From IMG/VR virus record IMGVR_UViG_2537562189_000009: a stretch of DNA of 64,000 nt, one strand, 5' to 3'. The position numbers and the translations under genes are program-made. Origin of the DNA: a virus (taxonomy: Duplodnaviria > Heunggongvirae > Uroviricota > Caudoviricetes). Of this stretch, positions 56,731-61,742 are shown in pieces; the stretch's first letter is position 1, and the number at the start of each line of letters is the position of its first letter. The notes beneath the pieces are model-generated. The model saw only the letters and a program-made list of their open reading frames with translations. It was not told the DNA's origin and ran no database searches.

Positions 56731-56957
56731 AGTGAGATATGGAAGAAGAATTTGAAGAGTTCGAAGAGCATCCACAGGATGTGATGGAACAATACCAGGA
56801 CTATCCGGATGACTACGACTATTGATACAAATCAATGGTGTGGGCAATACGAACTACGGCCATGATTGCCAGAGAACTTAGCAAACAGAAAAACAAGGCT
56901 GCCTGATGGTGGCCTTTATTTTTGGCATAAACAAATCAGTAAAAAAAAGCGAGGTGA

Positions 56958-57674
56958 TTGATGACCACGCCTTCAGTTTTGCCGCAAAAATTATGGCGTC
57001 CGCTTGCAGAGATTAAAAACTTCGTTGAAAAAATGCCTGACGGCGTTCGCCTTACGGAAGTTACTAAAAAAGTTAAGACATTTGCCGAACTGTCAGGAAA
57101 GGAGAGAAACCAGCTCATAGATTTTATCGATAAACGGGAAAGCATCATTGTATTTAAGGTCAGAAAAGAAGGTTCTGGTAACGGAGTAACCTTTTTCCGC
57201 CACAAAAAATATGGATATCCCAAGCGGGAAGGAAACGTCACAATCATTAAGGACCTTCAATCAAAATTATGTACCAGATGCGGGCAGACAAAATCAGTCG
57301 ATGATTTTTATTCAGATGCCAGCAAACGTGACGGGAGAGCCATTTATTGCAAGAAGTGCGAATCTGCAATGAAACGCTCACGCAGAGAATGCAACAAATT
57401 AATTCTGCAACAACAGGAACCTGAAATGAATAACCTAAAAGCAGTTTCACCTTCACCAGAAATACTCAGAAAGCAGGCGGAAGAATTGCTGAAAGCCGCC
57501 GAAATTGCGGAGAAAAAACGCCAGGAAGATGATGTATTCAACAAAAAACTTGCGCCCTTAAAACTTGAAATTCTTCAGGCCGCCGGAAAAATGCAGCTTA
57601 AACTGGACGAATTCATCGACTGTATGGATGAAATGAATAAAGCTGTTCAGAAGCTTAAAGAACTGACCGCCTGA
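56958..57674 (+). CDS. Hypothetical early-left protein with CxxC...CxxC
   Basis: 238 aa; CTRCGQ...CKKCES. Confidence 0.5.
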   Translation: MMTTPSVLPQKLWRPLAEIKNFVEKMPDGVRLTEVTKKVKTFAELSGKERNQLIDFIDKRESIIVFKVRKEGSGNGVTFFRHKKYGYPKREGNVTIIKDLQSKLCTRCGQTKSVDDFYSDASKRDGRAIYCKKCESAMKRSRRECNKLILQQQEPEMNNLKAVSPSPEILRKQAEELLKAAEIAEKKRQEDDVFNKKLAPLKLEILQAAGKMQLKLDEFIDCMDEMNKAVQKLKELTA

Positions 57675-57684
57675 TATTAATAAA

Positions 57685-58065
57685 TTGCAACTACCGGAGT
57701 TAACTATGAACGAAACAGAACTGAAGCACATTATCGCCCTGCTTCTGGAAGATGCCAAACAGGTTTATCGACTTAGCCCAAATTCCGCAACGCTGACACG
57801 CATCCAGATGGCAGAAAAAGCACTGAAACAGGATAATGAAAACAGCGCATCCGAAGTTGATGCTAATGGTGAAAATGAAGTAATAGAAATAAACAGCAAT
57901 ATCAGCGACAGTTGCGTCGCTTACAGCCACCAAATAATTCGTGTAAGCGCAAGAATAATGGAAGTGATGGCAAGTGAGCTTGAAAAGAACAACATCAAGC
58001 CCACTGATTGTTGTTTAAGAACCGTAATGAACGTTATTTATTACTCGATGTTCCGAAGTCGCTAA
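57685..58065 (+). CDS. Hypothetical early-left protein
   Basis: Likely start at MNETELK. Confidence 0.45.
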   Translation: MQLPELTMNETELKHIIALLLEDAKQVYRLSPNSATLTRIQMAEKALKQDNENSASEVDANGENEVIEINSNISDSCVAYSHQIIRVSARIMEVMASELEKNNIKPTDCCLRTVMNVIYYSMFRSR

Positions 58066-58243
58066 CAGCATCGAGTTTTTCATCAAAAAATGATTCAAAT
58101 GCATCGTAAAATACGGCAATAGCACCGCCCTTATCTACCGCGGCAGGAACTGCCTTTTGAGGTATATCTTTCTCCCTGAATTGTGTGTTGTAGGTATCGA
58201 CAGCCAGCCGCATCAGAAACATCACTTTTTCTTCTTGTGTCAT
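58034..58243 (-). CDS. Hypothetical small protein (69 aa), opposite strand
   Basis: RBS aaggag upstream of ATG 58243. Confidence 0.4.
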   Translation of the reverse strand: MTQEEKVMFLMRLAVDTYNTQFREKDIPQKAVPAAVDKGGAIAVFYDAFESFFDEKLDAVSDFGTSSNK

Positions 58244-58479
58244 AAATTCACTCTCCTTACGGGGTTTGTAGTTGAGGAGTTCTCCACGGGTCAGGTGGAG
58301 TTCGTGCGCCGGACACGGGTGAGCATCCGGCACTGTCAGTTTACTGAACAGATATTACCCTGAAAAGCCAGGGTGCAACACGAAAGCGCACGGCGAAGAC
58401 TCTTTCCCTTTGAAGGCTTGTCGTTAGATTTCTTCGACCGTGCGCTTCCGGTTGTGAATAACAACATTGCTGTGTGTAG

Positions 58480-58527
58480 TCATTGGCGGATATCAGTTTA
58501 ATTGCTGGCTGATATCCGCCCTTTTTT
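58480..58527 (+). terminator. Strong intrinsic terminator in early-left operon (tL-like)
   Basis: 12-bp stem ggcggatatcag/ctgatatccgcc then cttttttaaa. Confidence 0.7.
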
Positions 58528-58685
58528 AAAGTGAATTTTGTGATGCGGTGAATGCGGCTCAGCGCACGCGGAACAGTTAAACCGACAGGATGTCACGGAA
58601 AGTCATCGTCCCCTGACCCGGCGTTAATTGTTAACTGGTTAACGTCACCTGGAGGCACCAGGCACCGCATCAACAAAGTTCATTT

Positions 58686-58925
58686 GTGAAAATGGAGATA
58701 ATTATGATTGCTCATCACTTCAGAACTGATGAAATACCACGTCAGTGCGTGACACCTGGCGATTATGTTCTTCATGAAGGGCGGACATATATCGCTTCAG
58801 CAAACAATATTGAAAAGAGAAAACTCTATATTCGTAACTTCACGACAAAAACATGCATTACCGATTGCATGATTAAAGTCTTCCTCGGACGTGATGGTTT
58901 ACCTGTAAAAGCGGAGTCATGGTGA
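58686..58925 (+). CDS. Hypothetical small protein
   Basis: ORF only. Confidence 0.4.
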
Positions 58926-59095
58926 TAAATGTAAAAATAAAATGTGCCTACCATCTCTGCAATAAGGAAACCGAACAAACCAAATCCGTTAAAAGTCATC
59001 TTCATTTTATGAAAGGCACAATCCCCGTAACCGAAGAGCGGCAATATTGCAGTAAGCAATGCGCCGAAAATGACCAGATGGCACATGAACTCTAA
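58922..59095 (+). CDS. Small zinc-ribbon-like protein (57 aa)
   Basis: Not in track; CAYHLC...CSKQC. Confidence 0.35.
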
Positions 59096-59175
59096 CCCCT
59101 CAACTTGATATTCAGACAATTCAGTTTCATGCCAGATATAACAGCACCATAGGCCTTAAAAAAAGGACATATAAA

Positions 59176-59562
59176 GTGAAAGAACTTAATCCTGACCAAA
59201 TCTTTTCTGAAACCGAAAAGACAGCAGTAAATGAACTTAATGAAATTGCAAACCGCATCAGTAAAATATGCAAAGAATACAAAATCGACTTTGTATTTTC
59301 TTTTTCAGTGCTTACAGAAGTTGGAAATAACGAATATAAAGACAGTCGTTTGGTTTCATGTGGGTTAAATGGCAAAACACCAAGCCCATATATTCATGCC
59401 GCATGTGAAGTCGTCAGAAGCAACATTGAAGCACAACAAATCCATGAACTGGCGCTGGCTCTTGAGTTTGCAAGAGAAAATCCTGAGTGCGACTGCCCCG
59501 AATGCCAGCACGAAAAGGAAAAAACAACTAACAAAACAGCAAACCAGGCAACCTTCCACTGA
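59176..59562 (+). CDS. Hypothetical protein (128 aa) with C-terminal CDCPEC
   Basis: ORF only. Confidence 0.45.
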   Translation: MKELNPDQIFSETEKTAVNELNEIANRISKICKEYKIDFVFSFSVLTEVGNNEYKDSRLVSCGLNGKTPSPYIHAACEVVRSNIEAQQIHELALALEFARENPECDCPECQHEKEKTTNKTANQATFH

Positions 59563-59669
59563 AATAAAAATCCGGCAGCGCAGGCTACCGGATTTCTCCC
59601 TGCGTCACCGTATTCGGAGAAATCAGACAAAGGGCCGCTAATTCTAATCCAGCCAGAGGTTTAAATACA

Positions 59670-61742
59670 ATGAGTGCTGATAAACAGACTTTTGCACTAC
59701 ACTGCGAAGCAAAAAACGATAAAGTCAGAAAACGCCTTGACATCAAAGGCGGTTTTTTCTGGACCGAGGCCAGAAAACTTTCTGTCGCAGTTTCCCGCTG
59801 CATTGCAGCCATGGACGATGCAGGCTACGACGAGGATGATTTCAAAAAACCCGTTCGCGTAAATTTCCCCGTCGTGAATGACCTTCCACCGGAAGGCGTG
59901 TTTGATACTGAATTCTGCAACCGCTATGAAAAAGGCGGTAACGATGGCATCACCATGATGGCTATCCCCTTCGATGACAACATCAACGGTGAAGATGCCA
60001 CAACTGCTGGCGATGACAACGATAACCTGGACGGAACTATTCCGGATGATGTGGAGAAAAGCGAATCCCCGGACAGCGACGATGACTGTTCTGAGTGTGA
60101 AATTCCCGTCGCCACTCTGAGCCTTACTCATCGCTTCCTTCACCTCTTCTTATTCAGCAAAGATGAAGATGGAAAATACCGGCATCATGCCACACCAGAA
60201 CAACGCAATAACGTGATCCGTATGGAGATGGACACAGAGGACAGTTACCTTCAGAGCCTGCTTACTGCTGTGCGCGCCGCGCATCATGAACTGGATAAAC
60301 TGACGAACCATCACCTTAGTCGCCTAGCTGAATCTGTAGGGAAAGCATTCCCCCACTCTGCAAATCATCGCATCAGCCCGGCTGAATTCGACAAGTTCAT
60401 CTCCACCTGGATGAAAACAGACTATGTGGATCAGGGATTGCTGGCAAAAGAATGGCAGAAAGGAAATTATGTTACAGGCATCACTCGTACGCCTTCCGGT
60501 GCTAACGCTGGCGGCGGAAATCTTACCGATCGTGGCGAAGGCTTTACCCACAATCAGGCATCACTGGCGCGAGACATTGCCACTGGCGTTCTGGCCCGTT
60601 CAATAGATGTGGATATTTATAACCTGCACCCAGCACACGCAAAACGCGTTGAAGAAATCGTGTCAGAGAATAAGCCGCCCTTTTCTGTTTTCCGTGACAA
60701 ATTCATCGCCATGCCCGGTGGGCTGGATTATTCCCGCGCCATTGTGGTGGCTTCAGTGAAAGAAGCACCAATCGGCATTGAGGCTATCCCGGCGCGCGTG
60801 ACTGAATATCTCAACAAAGTGTTGACCGAAACCGATCACTCTAACCCGGATCCGGAAATCGTGGAAATCGCCTGCGGTCGCTCATCAGCCCCAATGCCGC
60901 AGCGCGGAACAGCAGAAGAGATACATGACGATGAAGAAAAGCAGCAAACATCGGACGCAATGTCTAATGAACAGGCAGCGCCTGAATCAGTGGAAGAAAT
61001 TCCAGTTAAACATAATGCGGACACGCAATCACTGGAAAATGTCTCATCTGTAGAAACGAAATACCAGGAACTGAGAGCAGAACTCCATGAAGCCAGGAAA
61101 AACATTTCGCCCAAAAATCCTGTCGATGCAGACAAATTGCTGGCTGCCTCTCGTGGGGAGTTCGTTGAAGGCATCAGCGCCCCAACCGACCCGAAGTGGA
61201 TTAAGGGGATCCAGGCTCGCGACACTGAGGACCAGAATCAGTCCAAAGTGGAACAAATTGCCCCAGAAGCGGGACAAAACAGCCCGGATACGCAACAAAA
61301 CGGGCCAGAAGAGCAACAGCCAGCCCCAGTAGCGCAACCGGAGCTGGAAAAAAACTGCCGCGTCTGTGGTCAGACTGGCGGGGGTAACTGCCCTGACTGT
61401 AGTGCGGTAATGGGCGATAGCACTTACACAGAAACTTTTGGAGAAAATGACGCCGCTGATGGAGAAGACTCAGCACAAACTGAGGAGAAGATCATTCAGG
61501 AAAACTCTGTTGATGCCGCTCAGGAGGGCGAAACCGTTGTTCAGAACGAGCCAGGCAGTGATACGTCCGGCGATGACGCCAATTCTGAGCCAGTAACTCT
61601 CGACTGGAAAAGACAGCTCGTGATTGCCGCCGTCTATGGTTTGTGCGCCAACCCCGCATGTATAGCCACAGCGCCAGCAATCCCTGATATCGCCATCATG
61701 ATTGCCAACAGGCTTGAAAATTTCGGAGGTGAGAAATCATGA
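59670..61742 (+). CDS. Large acidic early-left protein (690 aa) with C-terminal zinc-ribbon-like CRVCGQ...CPDC
   Basis: Long ORF immediately upstream of gam; extensive D/E-rich low-complexity. Confidence 0.6.

What the first reader, a model, noticed from the sequence alone, without database searches (positions are those of the whole stretch)
56739..61742. Early-left accessory cluster including a 690-aa acidic zinc-ribbon protein and a 28-aa ultra-acidic peptide
Between N and gam, where lambda carries ral/sieB/kil/cIII, this phage has about eight ORFs of unknown function. These include a possible 28-aa peptide MEEEFEEFEEHPQDVMEQYQDYPDDYDY (56739-56825), proteins with CxxC pairs, and a 690-aa D/E-rich protein ending in CRVCGQ...CPDC. 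A strong terminator at 58480-58527 splits the cluster. This N-dependent region commonly holds anti-restriction and host-takeover genes, and the acidic products could be DNA mimics.
Basis: inference. Interest (0 to 1): 0.55.

Follow-up and report, generated by a model that had tools for sequence, protein, structure and literature searches.

The report
Mosaic prophage early-left operon, nuclease-less RecE
This is an ordinary, widely shared stretch of a lambda-like E. coli prophage. The "mystery" proteins are mostly recognisable: lambda orf28, a dead ral gene, KilR, YdaE, and a RecE relative that has lost its nuclease. None shows signs of being a DNA mimic.

Summary
The features exist, but most are not unknown. 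The region is the pL (early-left) operon of a lambdoid prophage, 100% identical to E. coli chromosomes and 99.8% identical to Stx1c phage phiSTEC1589.

- **28-aa acidic peptide:** this is lambda orf28, 27 of 28 residues identical. It overlaps a ral gene inactivated by a 103-nt deletion.
- **"Strong terminator":** this is the 3' hairpin of a homolog of the Rac small RNA KilS. It sits in the leader of kilR, which is followed by ydaE.
- **690-aa protein:** this matches the non-catalytic N-terminal ~600 residues of RecE (52% identical to Rac RecE residues 50-555, zinc ribbon included). The nuclease domain is replaced by a conserved ~47-aa hydrophobic tail. Its stop codon overlaps the gam start codon, and bet and exo follow.
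- **Selection:** the gene is under purifying selection (dN/dS 0.24-0.34). The acidity sits in fast-evolving, probably disordered linkers.
- **Fold:** the confidently modelled core has no structural relative in PDB or BFVD.
- **Still unknown:** four ORFs of 237, 119, 69 (minus strand) and 128 aa.

Nuclease-less "RecE-2" proteins were noted in a 2025 paper, with function unknown. The DNA-mimic and anti-restriction reading is not supported. Interest is low to moderate.

The parts
55962..56300 (+). N-type antiterminator gene (context, upstream of the finding)
   Evidence: Pfam N_peptide, weak (E 0.004). The DNA is 91.5% identical to the mEp235 region annotated as N.
56269..56607 (+). Nun-like transcription termination factor gene (context)
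   Evidence: PHROG 5632 'Nun-like', E 2e-69, full length. mEp235 has the same N-Nun tandem.
56739..56825 (+). orf28, homolog of lambda orf28 (lambdap47): 28 aa, 13 acidic residues, no basic residues
   Evidence: 27/28 identical to the lambda orf28 translation. PHROG 16060, E 5e-17. No evidence here that it is translated.
56808..56906 (+). ral pseudogene: start codon at 56808, 103-nt internal deletion near 56840, out-of-frame C-terminal 23 codons at 56835-56906
   Evidence: Alignment with lambda orf28-ral shows a clean 103-nt gap flanked by the short repeat TGG(A/G)CAAT. Pfam Ral matches only positions 46-66 of 66. The same 23-aa fragment is called in L008 and L009.
56895..56916 (+). Hairpin plus T-run just after ral, conserved with lambda
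   Evidence: Terminator scan. The sequence is nearly identical in lambda.
56961..57674 (+). 237-aa protein of unknown function, with a central CxxC...CxxC zinc ribbon (residues about 104-133)
   Evidence: PHROG 2539 (unknown function), E 1e-130. Only the ribbon matches generic endonuclease VII, HNH and 'Lar-like' profiles. No Pfam, NCBIfam or PDB match. No real similarity to Rac RalR/Lar. dN/dS 0.04.
57706..58065 (+). 119-aa protein of unknown function
   Evidence: PHROG 2982 (unknown), E 9e-77. The single informative comparison gives dN/dS 0.76, so coding constraint is not shown.
58034..58243 (-). 69-aa ORF on the opposite strand, unknown function; overlaps the end of the 119-aa ORF
   Evidence: PHROG 2605, E 5e-45. 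Annotated by PGAP. dN/dS 0.46 against a 62%-identical homolog.
58425..58527 (+).
   Evidence: Aligns with Rac KilS (MG1655 1418405-1418502), with a compensatory C:G to U:A change in the stem. z = -4.7. Sub-threshold DicF match, 35.6 bits, E 8e-5. KilS is northern-verified in K-12 (PMC8175672).
58704..58925 (+). kilR, cell-division and elongation inhibitor
   Evidence: 93% identical to Rac KilR. NCBIfam NF008465 scores 155.6 bits against a cutoff of 92. dN/dS 0.02-0.08.
58919..59095 (+). ydaE, small zinc-binding protein
   Evidence: 60% identical to Rac YdaE. NCBIfam YdaE_coli scores 89.6 bits against a cutoff of 35. Pfam RPAP2_Rtr1 zinc finger.
59176..59562 (+). 128-aa protein of unknown function in the position of Rac racC, with a C-terminal CxCxxC
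   Evidence: PHROG 2016 (unknown), E 9e-72. No similarity to RacC. dN/dS 0.24-0.35.
59670..61742 (+). Nuclease-less RecE N-terminal homolog ('RecE-N', 690 aa). Layout: N-domain 1-100; helical core about 145-410; conserved segment 466-520; zinc ribbon 563-577; acidic linkers; conserved hydrophobic tail 644-690
   Evidence: BLASTP to Rac RecE residues 50-555, 52% identical. Pfam gives only PF06630. NCBIfam RecE model is covered 1-598 of 877, at 733 bits against a cutoff of 1269. No match to the solved RecE nuclease 3H4R. dN/dS 0.24-0.34. AF2 core pLDDT above 90.
61739..63503 (+). Lambda-type gam (61739-62035), bet (62041-62826) and exo (62823-63503); the gam ATG overlaps the RecE-N stop (ATGA)
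   Evidence: Pfam Gam E 5e-65, RecT E 3e-33, YqaJ E 7e-29. Coordinates.

Best explanation
The interval is the accessory part of the pL (early-left, N-antiterminated) operon of a lambdoid E. coli prophage. It was assembled by recombination from lambda-type and Rac-type modules.

Reading with transcription:
1. Lambda orf28, overlapping a ral gene killed by a 103-nt deletion.
2. Three conserved ORFs of unknown function (237 aa and 119 aa on the + strand, 69 aa on the - strand).
3. A KilS-like small RNA whose terminator hairpin is the 'strong terminator'.
4. kilR and ydaE.
5. A 128-aa ORF of unknown function.
6. A 690-aa gene, followed by lambda gam-bet-exo.

The 690-aa protein is the non-catalytic N-terminal platform of RecE. 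It keeps the N-domain, helical core, conserved mid-segment and zinc ribbon. It lacks the PD-(D/E)XK nuclease and carries instead a conserved ~47-aa hydrophobic tail. Its stop codon overlaps the gam start codon.

Shown:
- The identities above and the absence of the nuclease domain.
- Purifying selection on the folded modules and on the tail.
- The near-invariant tail-gam junction.
- The same platform occurs elsewhere fused to two different nucleases.

Inferred:
- RecE-N is a working, non-enzymatic accessory of the phage recombination module. In this phage the nuclease role is taken by lambda Exo. RecE-N would supply in trans what the N-terminal region supplies in full-length RecE, perhaps using the tail as a docking element. 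In full-length RecE that region boosts linear-linear recombination (Fu et al. 2012, as cited in PMC11610958).

I put the identity assignments at about 0.95. I put 'functional gene, not a relic' at about 0.85. I put the recombination-accessory mechanism at about 0.4.
For: Identity and context:
- 100% DNA identity to E. coli chromosomes and 99.8% to phage phiSTEC1589-Stx1c, with matching annotation.
- orf28 and the ral deletion.
- KilS homology, with the core conserved in seven loci.
- KilR and YdaE.

RecE-N:
- Domain evidence.
- At least 120 protein clusters of mostly 680-700 aa, 76-100% identical, all carrying PF06630 only.
- The same gene order occurs in prophages with different immunity regions and attachment sites.
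- dN/dS is 0.24-0.34 overall and 0.07-0.2 for most comparisons of the folded modules and the tail. It is 0.25-1.0 across comparisons in the acidic linkers.
- The tail DNA is present in 106 of 5426 complete E. coli genomes. 105 genomes carry the tail joined directly to gam.
- Of 55 family representatives, 16 carry the RecE PD-(D/E)XK domain and 11 carry an Rv2179c-like 3'-5' exonuclease domain. That domain is C-terminal in the two examined.
- Full-length relatives in Rac, Gifsy-2, a Klebsiella phage and HK225 are each followed by recT.

Literature:
- Nuclease-less 'RecE-2' proteins occur in lambdoid Rec modules (PMC12315714).
Against: - No experiment or structure links RecE-N to recombination in trans.
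- The tail scores 1.75 on the Kyte-Doolittle scale over 19 residues. It could be a membrane anchor rather than a docking element.
- The tail-gam linkage could reflect co-inheritance of one recombination junction rather than function.
- I could not test a tail-Exo, tail-Bet or tail-Gam interaction.
- The 119-aa and 69-aa ORFs show only weak coding constraint.
Confidence: 0.6

Rival explanations
1. One reading: the acidic products (the 690-aa protein and the 28-aa peptide) are DNA mimics or other anti-restriction or anti-defence factors that bind host restriction enzymes or RecBCD.
For: - The early-left accessory position is where lambda keeps ral and gam.
- Both products carry strong net negative charge.
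- The 690-aa gene is translationally coupled to gam, a known DNA-mimic RecBCD inhibitor.
- The function of the RecE N-terminal region is unknown (PMC11611040), so an anti-defence role is not excluded.
Against: - The charge lies in four linkers that evolve nearly neutrally and include a low-confidence stretch in the model. The constrained modules are about neutral in charge.
- The same acidic linkers occur in the bona fide nuclease RecE.
- There is no structural similarity to any solved DNA mimic.
- orf28 is non-essential in lambda and has no reported phenotype (PMC10695390).
- The one real anti-restriction gene in the cluster is dead.
Confidence: 0.1
2. The 690-aa ORF is a non-functional relic. 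A Rac-type recE was cut in its linker when a lambda gam-bet-exo module recombined in, and the leftover reading frame simply has not decayed yet.
For: - The junction falls exactly at the end of the Rac-type linker in one variant (P0253).
- The region is visibly mosaic, with dS varying tenfold between segments.
- Frameshifted fragments of the gene exist in Shigella and E. coli.
Against: - Length is conserved at mostly 680-700 aa across at least 120 clusters down to 76% identity.
- dN/dS is 0.07-0.2 for most comparisons of the folded modules and of the new tail. A relic would drift toward 1 and accumulate stop codons.
- The tail itself is more conserved than the linker that precedes it.
Confidence: 0.07
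3. RecE-N is functional but its job is not recombination. The hydrophobic tail anchors it to the membrane, or to another host structure, for a host-takeover, exclusion or replication-organising role alongside kilR.
For: - The tail hydropathy of 1.75 over 19 residues exceeds the usual 1.6 transmembrane threshold.
- The first AF2 model predicts two short helices in the tail, but at low confidence.
- The gene lies next to the kilR-ydaE host-interference module.
- The fold is an orphan.
Against: - The two predicted helices (about 14 and 12 residues) are short for membrane spans.
- Every other family member examined fuses the platform to a DNA exonuclease and sits in a Rec module.
- The tail is tied to gam, not to kilR.
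Confidence: 0.15

Closest known systems
RecE (exonuclease VIII) of the Rac prophage, E. coli K-12
   Same: 52% identity over RecE residues 50-555. This includes the highly conserved core ([21 protein letters not shown] ... PDPEIV), the 466-520 segment and the CxxC...CPDC zinc ribbon. The upstream neighbours are also the same: KilS, kilR and ydaE.
   Different: The C-terminal PD-(D/E)XK nuclease domain (solved as 3H4R) is absent and replaced by an unrelated ~47-aa hydrophobic tail. The gene is followed by lambda gam-bet-exo instead of recT. The first ~50 residues and residues 100-240 are strongly diverged.
'RecE-2' proteins of lambdoid Rec modules (Genome Res 2025, PMC12315714)
   Same: [quoted passage not shown] That description fits this gene.
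   Different: [quoted passage not shown] Its supplements were not available. I therefore could not confirm that this 52%-identical protein is in their set. The paper does not mention the conserved tail or its link to gam.
Bacteriophage lambda early-left region (orf28, ral, gam, bet, exo)
   Same: orf28 is 27/28 identical. The ral ends and the hairpin after ral are conserved. Gam is 84% identical to the 98-residue GamS part. Bet and exo are of lambda type.
   Different: ral is deleted internally. There are no homologs of lambda sieB, ea10, cIII or kil in this operon. Rac-type kilR-ydaE and RecE-N are inserted instead.
KilS sRNA of Rac (Bar et al. 2021, PMC8175672), with DicF (Rfam RF00039) as a lookalike
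   Same: It occupies the same position in the kilR 5' leader. It has the same conserved single-stranded block and a terminator hairpin with a compensatory change.
   Different: The loop is shorter and the stem is perfect. The DicF score is below Rfam's gathering threshold (35.6 against 48 bits), so it is not a DicF family member by that test. Expression here is untested.

Membership tests
RecE / exodeoxyribonuclease VIII (the name given by PGAP and GenBank) | C-terminal PD-(D/E)XK 5'-3' exonuclease domain (Pfam PF12684; solved structure 3H4R) | tested here: not met
   Pfam finds only PF06630. phmmer against PDB finds nothing at E <= 1. BLASTP alignment to Rac RecE stops at residue 555. The tail has no similarity to the nuclease in any frame.
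RecE / exodeoxyribonuclease VIII (the name given by PGAP and GenBank) | Full-length match to the NCBIfam equivalog NF007259 above its cutoff | tested here: not met
   732.7 bits against a cutoff of 1269. Model positions 1-598 of 877 are covered.
RecE / exodeoxyribonuclease VIII (the name given by PGAP and GenBank) | N-terminal Exonuc_VIII region (Pfam PF06630) and the conserved RecE core | tested here: met
   PF06630 at E 2e-12 and 47.6 bits against a cutoff of 25. 52% identity to Rac RecE residues 50-555.
RecE / exodeoxyribonuclease VIII (the name given by PGAP and GenBank) | Partner annealase recT immediately downstream | tested here: not met
   gam, bet (lambda-type, in the RecT superfamily) and exo follow instead. 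Full-length relatives have recT.
Nuclease-less RecE relatives ('RecE-2', PMC12315714) | RecE-related protein in a lambdoid Rec module with no nuclease fold | tested here: met
   The sequence tests are listed above. The AF2 model of residues 1-435 shows an N-domain plus an all-helical core. Residues 436-690 were modelled only at low confidence, so the absence of a nuclease there rests on sequence alone.
DNA-mimic anti-restriction proteins (Ocr, ArdA, Gam type) | Folded, conserved surface of acidic residues that imitates the DNA backbone | tested here: not met
   The acidic residues are concentrated in linkers with dN/dS of 0.25-1.0 across comparisons, one of them modelled at pLDDT below 50. The constrained modules have net charge 0 to -4. 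No fold match to any solved mimic.
DNA-mimic anti-restriction proteins (Ocr, ArdA, Gam type) | Binding and inhibition of a restriction enzyme or RecBCD | not testable with these tools
   Needs biochemistry or plaque assays.
Ral (Pfam PF11058) | Intact ~66-aa reading frame | tested here: not met
   A 103-nt internal deletion shifts the frame. Only profile positions 46-66 are matched.
Lambda orf28 (PHROG 16060) | 28-aa ORF overlapping the ral start, with matching sequence | tested here: met
   27/28 identical, same position relative to ral. PHROG E 5e-17.
KilR | Match to NCBIfam NF008465 above its cutoff | tested here: met
   155.6 bits against a cutoff of 92. 93% identity to Rac KilR.
KilS sRNA | Sequence and hairpin homology in the kilR 5' leader | tested here: met
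   Alignments A3 and A7. There is no Rfam model for KilS, so no curated threshold could be applied.
DicF (Rfam RF00039) | Score at or above the gathering threshold | tested here: not met
   35.6 bits against 48.

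The most novel reading that the evidence does not exclude
The N-terminal ~600 residues of RecE form an autonomous module with an orphan fold, and different C-terminal effectors can be plugged onto it: a PD-(D/E)XK 5'-3' exonuclease, a DEDD 3'-5' exonuclease, or a short docking tail. In this prophage family, nature has carried out the 'split RecE' experiment. RecE-N would work in trans with lambda Gam, Bet and Exo through its conserved tail. It would give Red the end-to-end (linear-linear) recombination ability that only full-length RecE is known to have, or else protect or sense DNA ends against host defence. 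Studying it would finally assign a function to a region left unexplained since RecE was sequenced.
Probability: 0.25. Interest if true: 0.55.

Novelty: new member of a known kind. Interest (0 to 1): 0.28.

Why it matters
For the scan, this removes a false lead. The cluster is a common mosaic of known lambdoid modules, and the 'DNA mimic' idea has no support.

Two practical points remain:
- More than a hundred protein clusters are named 'exodeoxyribonuclease VIII / RecE family exodeoxyribonuclease' although they have no nuclease domain. That name will mislead automated inference.
- A stand-alone RecE N-terminal protein, under selection and always joined to gam-bet-exo, is a natural handle on an old minor puzzle in recombineering: what the large non-catalytic part of RecE does. 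A tractable phage exists. PhiR5_2, whose recorded host is K-12 MG1655, carries a 96%-identical copy.

Tried and rejected
1. Origin of the C-terminal tail.
- I looked for it in lambda kil and gamL, in the Rac recE nuclease region in all frames, in the Gifsy-2, Klebsiella-phage and HK225 recE loci, and elsewhere in the window. Nothing was found.
- tblastn against phages and a profile search of 5.8 billion proteins found it only in the same gene or its fragments.

2. Structure.
- The full-length AF2 model from a 16-sequence alignment failed (mean pLDDT 36).
- A 63-sequence alignment rescued residues 1-435 (pLDDT 79.9).
- A family profile against PDB sequences hit only the nuclease part, 3H4R.

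3. The 237-aa protein as a Lar/RalR-type anti-restriction protein.
- The PHROG 'Lar-like' hit covers only the generic zinc ribbon.
- BLASTP to Rac RalR is insignificant (E 0.22), and NCBIfam gives nothing. Rejected.

4. The 128-aa ORF as racC: no similarity.

5. PADLOC gave no hit for any ORF.

6. The search for related loci with the diverse alignment failed because no stretch was conserved enough. With the single protein it gave only four loci, too few for a cross-species co-occurrence test.

7. One literature search returned only irrelevant papers.

8. Supplements of PMC12315714 were not available, so I could not check which phages carry 'RecE-2'.

Full report
**What is in the sequence**

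The + strand of window 54-64 kb carries a lambdoid immunity region followed by an early-left operon:
- a cI-like repressor at 54547-55254, with a cro-like gene on the opposite strand;
- an N-type gene at 55962-56300;
- a Nun-like gene at 56269-56607;
- the ORFs of the finding;
- gam, bet and exo at 61739-63503.

Pfam confirms Gam (E 5e-65), a RecT-family Bet and a YqaJ-type Exo. The 6.3 kb from 55800 to 62100 is 100% identical to several E. coli chromosomes. From 56933 onward it is 99.8% identical to Stx1c phage phiSTEC1589. Annotated copies give the same gene calls.

The zinc ribbon of the 690-aa protein is at residues 563-577, not at its end. One ORF of the cluster is on the minus strand.

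**The 28-aa acidic peptide and ral**

The peptide is lambda orf28 (lambdap47), 27 of 28 residues identical. It matches a 28-residue PHROG of unknown function.

Aligning the window with the lambda orf28-ral region shows near-identity on both sides of a clean 103-nt gap inside ral. The gap is flanked by the short repeat TGG(A/G)CAAT. The ral start codon is at 56808. After 13 codons the frame shifts, and only the last 21 residues of Ral survive in another frame. This is the 23-aa 'Ral family' fragment called by PGAP. The same remnant occurs in related prophages.

So the single recognisable anti-restriction gene of the cluster is dead. In lambda, orf28 is annotated as hypothetical and was non-essential in a CRISPRi survey (PMC10695390). 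Nothing here shows that it is translated.

**The 'strong terminator'**

The hairpin at 58485-58520 with its T-run is the best terminator-like site in the region. The surrounding 106 nt fold far better than shuffled versions (z = -4.7).

It aligns with the Rac prophage segment just upstream of kilR that encodes KilS. KilS is an Hfq-associated small RNA verified by northern blot (PMC8175672). Across seven loci the single-stranded block is invariant. The stem shows a compensatory C:G to U:A change.

Rfam gives only sub-threshold matches:
- DicF, 35.6 against 48 bits;
- STnc100 in the kilR leader;
- RprA, because of a shared block.

The element is therefore a KilS homolog in the kilR leader, not merely a divider of the cluster.

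**Rac-type genes and the remaining unknowns**

kilR (58704-58925) is 93% identical to Rac KilR and passes the NCBIfam cutoff. ydaE (58919-59095) is 60% identical to Rac YdaE and also passes.

Four ORFs remain without function:
- the 237-aa protein (PHROG 2539);
- the 119-aa protein (PHROG 2982);
- the 69-aa protein on the minus strand (PHROG 2605);
- the 128-aa protein (PHROG 2016), which sits where Rac has racC but is unrelated to it.

None has a Pfam, NCBIfam, PADLOC or PDB-sequence match of note. The 237-aa protein's CxxC...CxxC segment matches only generic zinc-ribbon parts of endonuclease VII, HNH and 'Lar-like' profiles. It is not similar to Rac RalR.

The exact sequences are each seen on at least 1000 contigs, always as 'hypothetical'. 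Pairwise dN/dS supports real genes for the 237-aa (0.04) and 128-aa (0.24-0.35) ORFs. Support is weak for the 69-aa (0.46) and 119-aa (0.76, one comparison) ORFs. Lambda sieB, ea10, cIII and kil have no homolog in this operon.

**The 690-aa protein: identity**

It is annotated 'RecE family exodeoxyribonuclease'. The evidence on its domains:
- BLASTP aligns it with Rac RecE residues 50-555 at 52% identity. This includes a nearly invariant core and the zinc ribbon CxxCGQTGGxNCPDC, which RecE also has.
- The RecE nuclease domain is missing. Pfam finds only the N-terminal PF06630.
- There is no match to the solved nuclease 3H4R.
- The NCBIfam RecE equivalog is covered only over positions 1-598 of 877 and scores below its cutoff.
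- The last ~47 residues ([47 protein letters not shown]) resemble nothing in RecE, lambda or the other loci, in any frame.

The stop codon overlaps the gam start (ATGA).

**The 690-aa protein: a relic or a gene?**

At least 120 protein clusters of mostly 680-700 residues, 76-100% identical, share this architecture. The same gene order occurs in prophages with different immunity regions and attachment sites.

Nei-Gojobori estimates against three homologs give dN/dS of 0.24-0.34 for the whole gene. By segment:

| Segment | dN/dS |
|---|---|
| Residues 1-100, 151-240, 241-410 and the tail 644-690 | 0.07-0.21 |
| Residues 466-520 | 0.13-0.18 in two comparisons, 0.66 in the third |
| Acidic linkers 101-150, 411-465, 521-558, 593-643 | 0.25-1.0 across comparisons |

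The net charge of -58 lies almost wholly in those linkers. The constrained modules are near neutral.

The tail DNA occurs in 106 of 5426 complete E. coli genomes, including O104:H4. 105 genomes carry the tail joined directly to gam. Variants with a longer tail still overlap the gam start. One variant (P0253) shows the tail joined exactly after the Rac-type linker that precedes the nuclease in RecE.

I conclude that this is a functional gene whose nuclease domain was replaced by a short conserved module.

**The 690-aa protein: family and fold**

An exhaustive search of 1.84 billion representative proteins finds only 205 clusters at E <= 0.001. Of 55 longer representatives:
- 41 carry PF06630;
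- 16 carry the RecE PD-(D/E)XK domain;
- 11 carry an Rv2179c-like DEDD 3'-5' exonuclease domain, C-terminal in the two I examined;
- 2 carry a RecT domain.

Full-length relatives in Rac, Gifsy-2, a Klebsiella phage and HK225 are each followed by recT. The N-terminal region thus behaves as a platform with exchangeable C-terminal effectors.

**What is known**

Reviews state that the RecE N-terminal region has no known function. They also state that full-length RecE, unlike the nuclease domain alone, strongly promotes linear-linear recombination (PMC11611040, PMC11610958, both citing Fu et al. 2012).

[quoted passage not shown] It also mentions DnaQ-like nucleases in such modules (PMC12315714). 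I could not check whether this protein is in their set.

**Most likely mechanism and rivals**

The best reading is that RecE-N is a non-catalytic accessory of the phage recombination module. The phage uses lambda Exo and Bet for resection and annealing, and keeps the RecE platform as a separate protein. The platform may dock through its tail. I put this at about 0.4. It is inference from gene context, selection and the modular family pattern, and no interaction was tested.

The rivals:
- **Membrane-anchored or host-directed role (0.15).** The tail hydropathy of 1.75 over 19 residues suggests it.
The location and evolution of the acidic residues argue against it.
- **Decaying relic (0.07).** The selection data argue against it.

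**Verdict**

The cluster is an ordinary, widely distributed mosaic of known lambdoid modules. The two headline items have prosaic identities. The anti-restriction and DNA-mimic interpretation is not supported. The residual interest is the mis-named, nuclease-less RecE platform with its conserved gam-linked tail. It is a modest but testable lead on what the large non-catalytic part of RecE does.

Noticed in passing
window 58440-58482 (upstream of the KilS-like hairpin): The single-stranded block of the KilS-like RNA contains AUUGCUGUGUGUAGUC. This is identical to a 16-nt stretch of the chromosomal sRNA RprA that lies just before RprA's own terminator. There is further similarity upstream (GAAUAAC.A). 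A prophage sRNA may share a seed with RprA. I found no mention of this in the KilS paper.
   Followed up: partly
window 58471-58521 and 58511-58718: Sub-threshold Rfam matches: DicF (35.6 against 48 bits, E 8e-5) on the hairpin, and STnc100 (30.8 against 47 bits, E 0.001) over the kilR leader.
   Followed up: partly
window 55962-56607: An N-type antiterminator gene and a Nun-like terminator-factor gene (PHROG 5632, E 2e-69) sit in tandem and overlap by 32 nt, as in phage mEp235. One prophage thus carries both an antiterminator and a lambda-excluding factor.
   Followed up: partly
P0253, P0360, P0370 (relatives); L018 5001-5228: Longer variants of the RecE-N tail end in ...ENFGVT(S/D)DE(R/H)(L/M)PDF. 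This acidic-then-hydrophobic tip is reminiscent, from memory, of the E. coli SSB C-terminal tip DDDIPF, which recruits many DNA-metabolism proteins. The window's version stops before this motif. In the long variants the extra residues are encoded over the gam start.
   Followed up: no
P0266, P0284 (relatives): Some RecE-N family members carry a C-terminal Rv2179c-like DEDD 3'-5' exonuclease in place of the RecE 5'-3' nuclease. These enzymes have opposite polarity but sit on the same platform.
   Followed up: partly
window 42237-42296, minus strand: A weak tblastn match (21 aa, 57% identity, E 0.001) to the core of lambda CIII, far from the pL operon examined here.
   Followed up: no
L015 (contig JAGZPX010000007.1): A RecE-N relative (43% identity) lies on a contig binned as a Veillonella parvula MAG. 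Given the enterobacterial range of the family, this is probably a mis-binned enterobacterial prophage contig.
   Followed up: no
window 59670-61742 and at least 120 database clusters: Public annotation names these proteins 'exodeoxyribonuclease VIII / RecE family exodeoxyribonuclease' although no nuclease domain is present. Likewise kilR is given the product name 'cell division protein FtsZ' in PGAP and in the phage record. KilR is the inhibitor of FtsZ, not FtsZ itself.
   Followed up: yes
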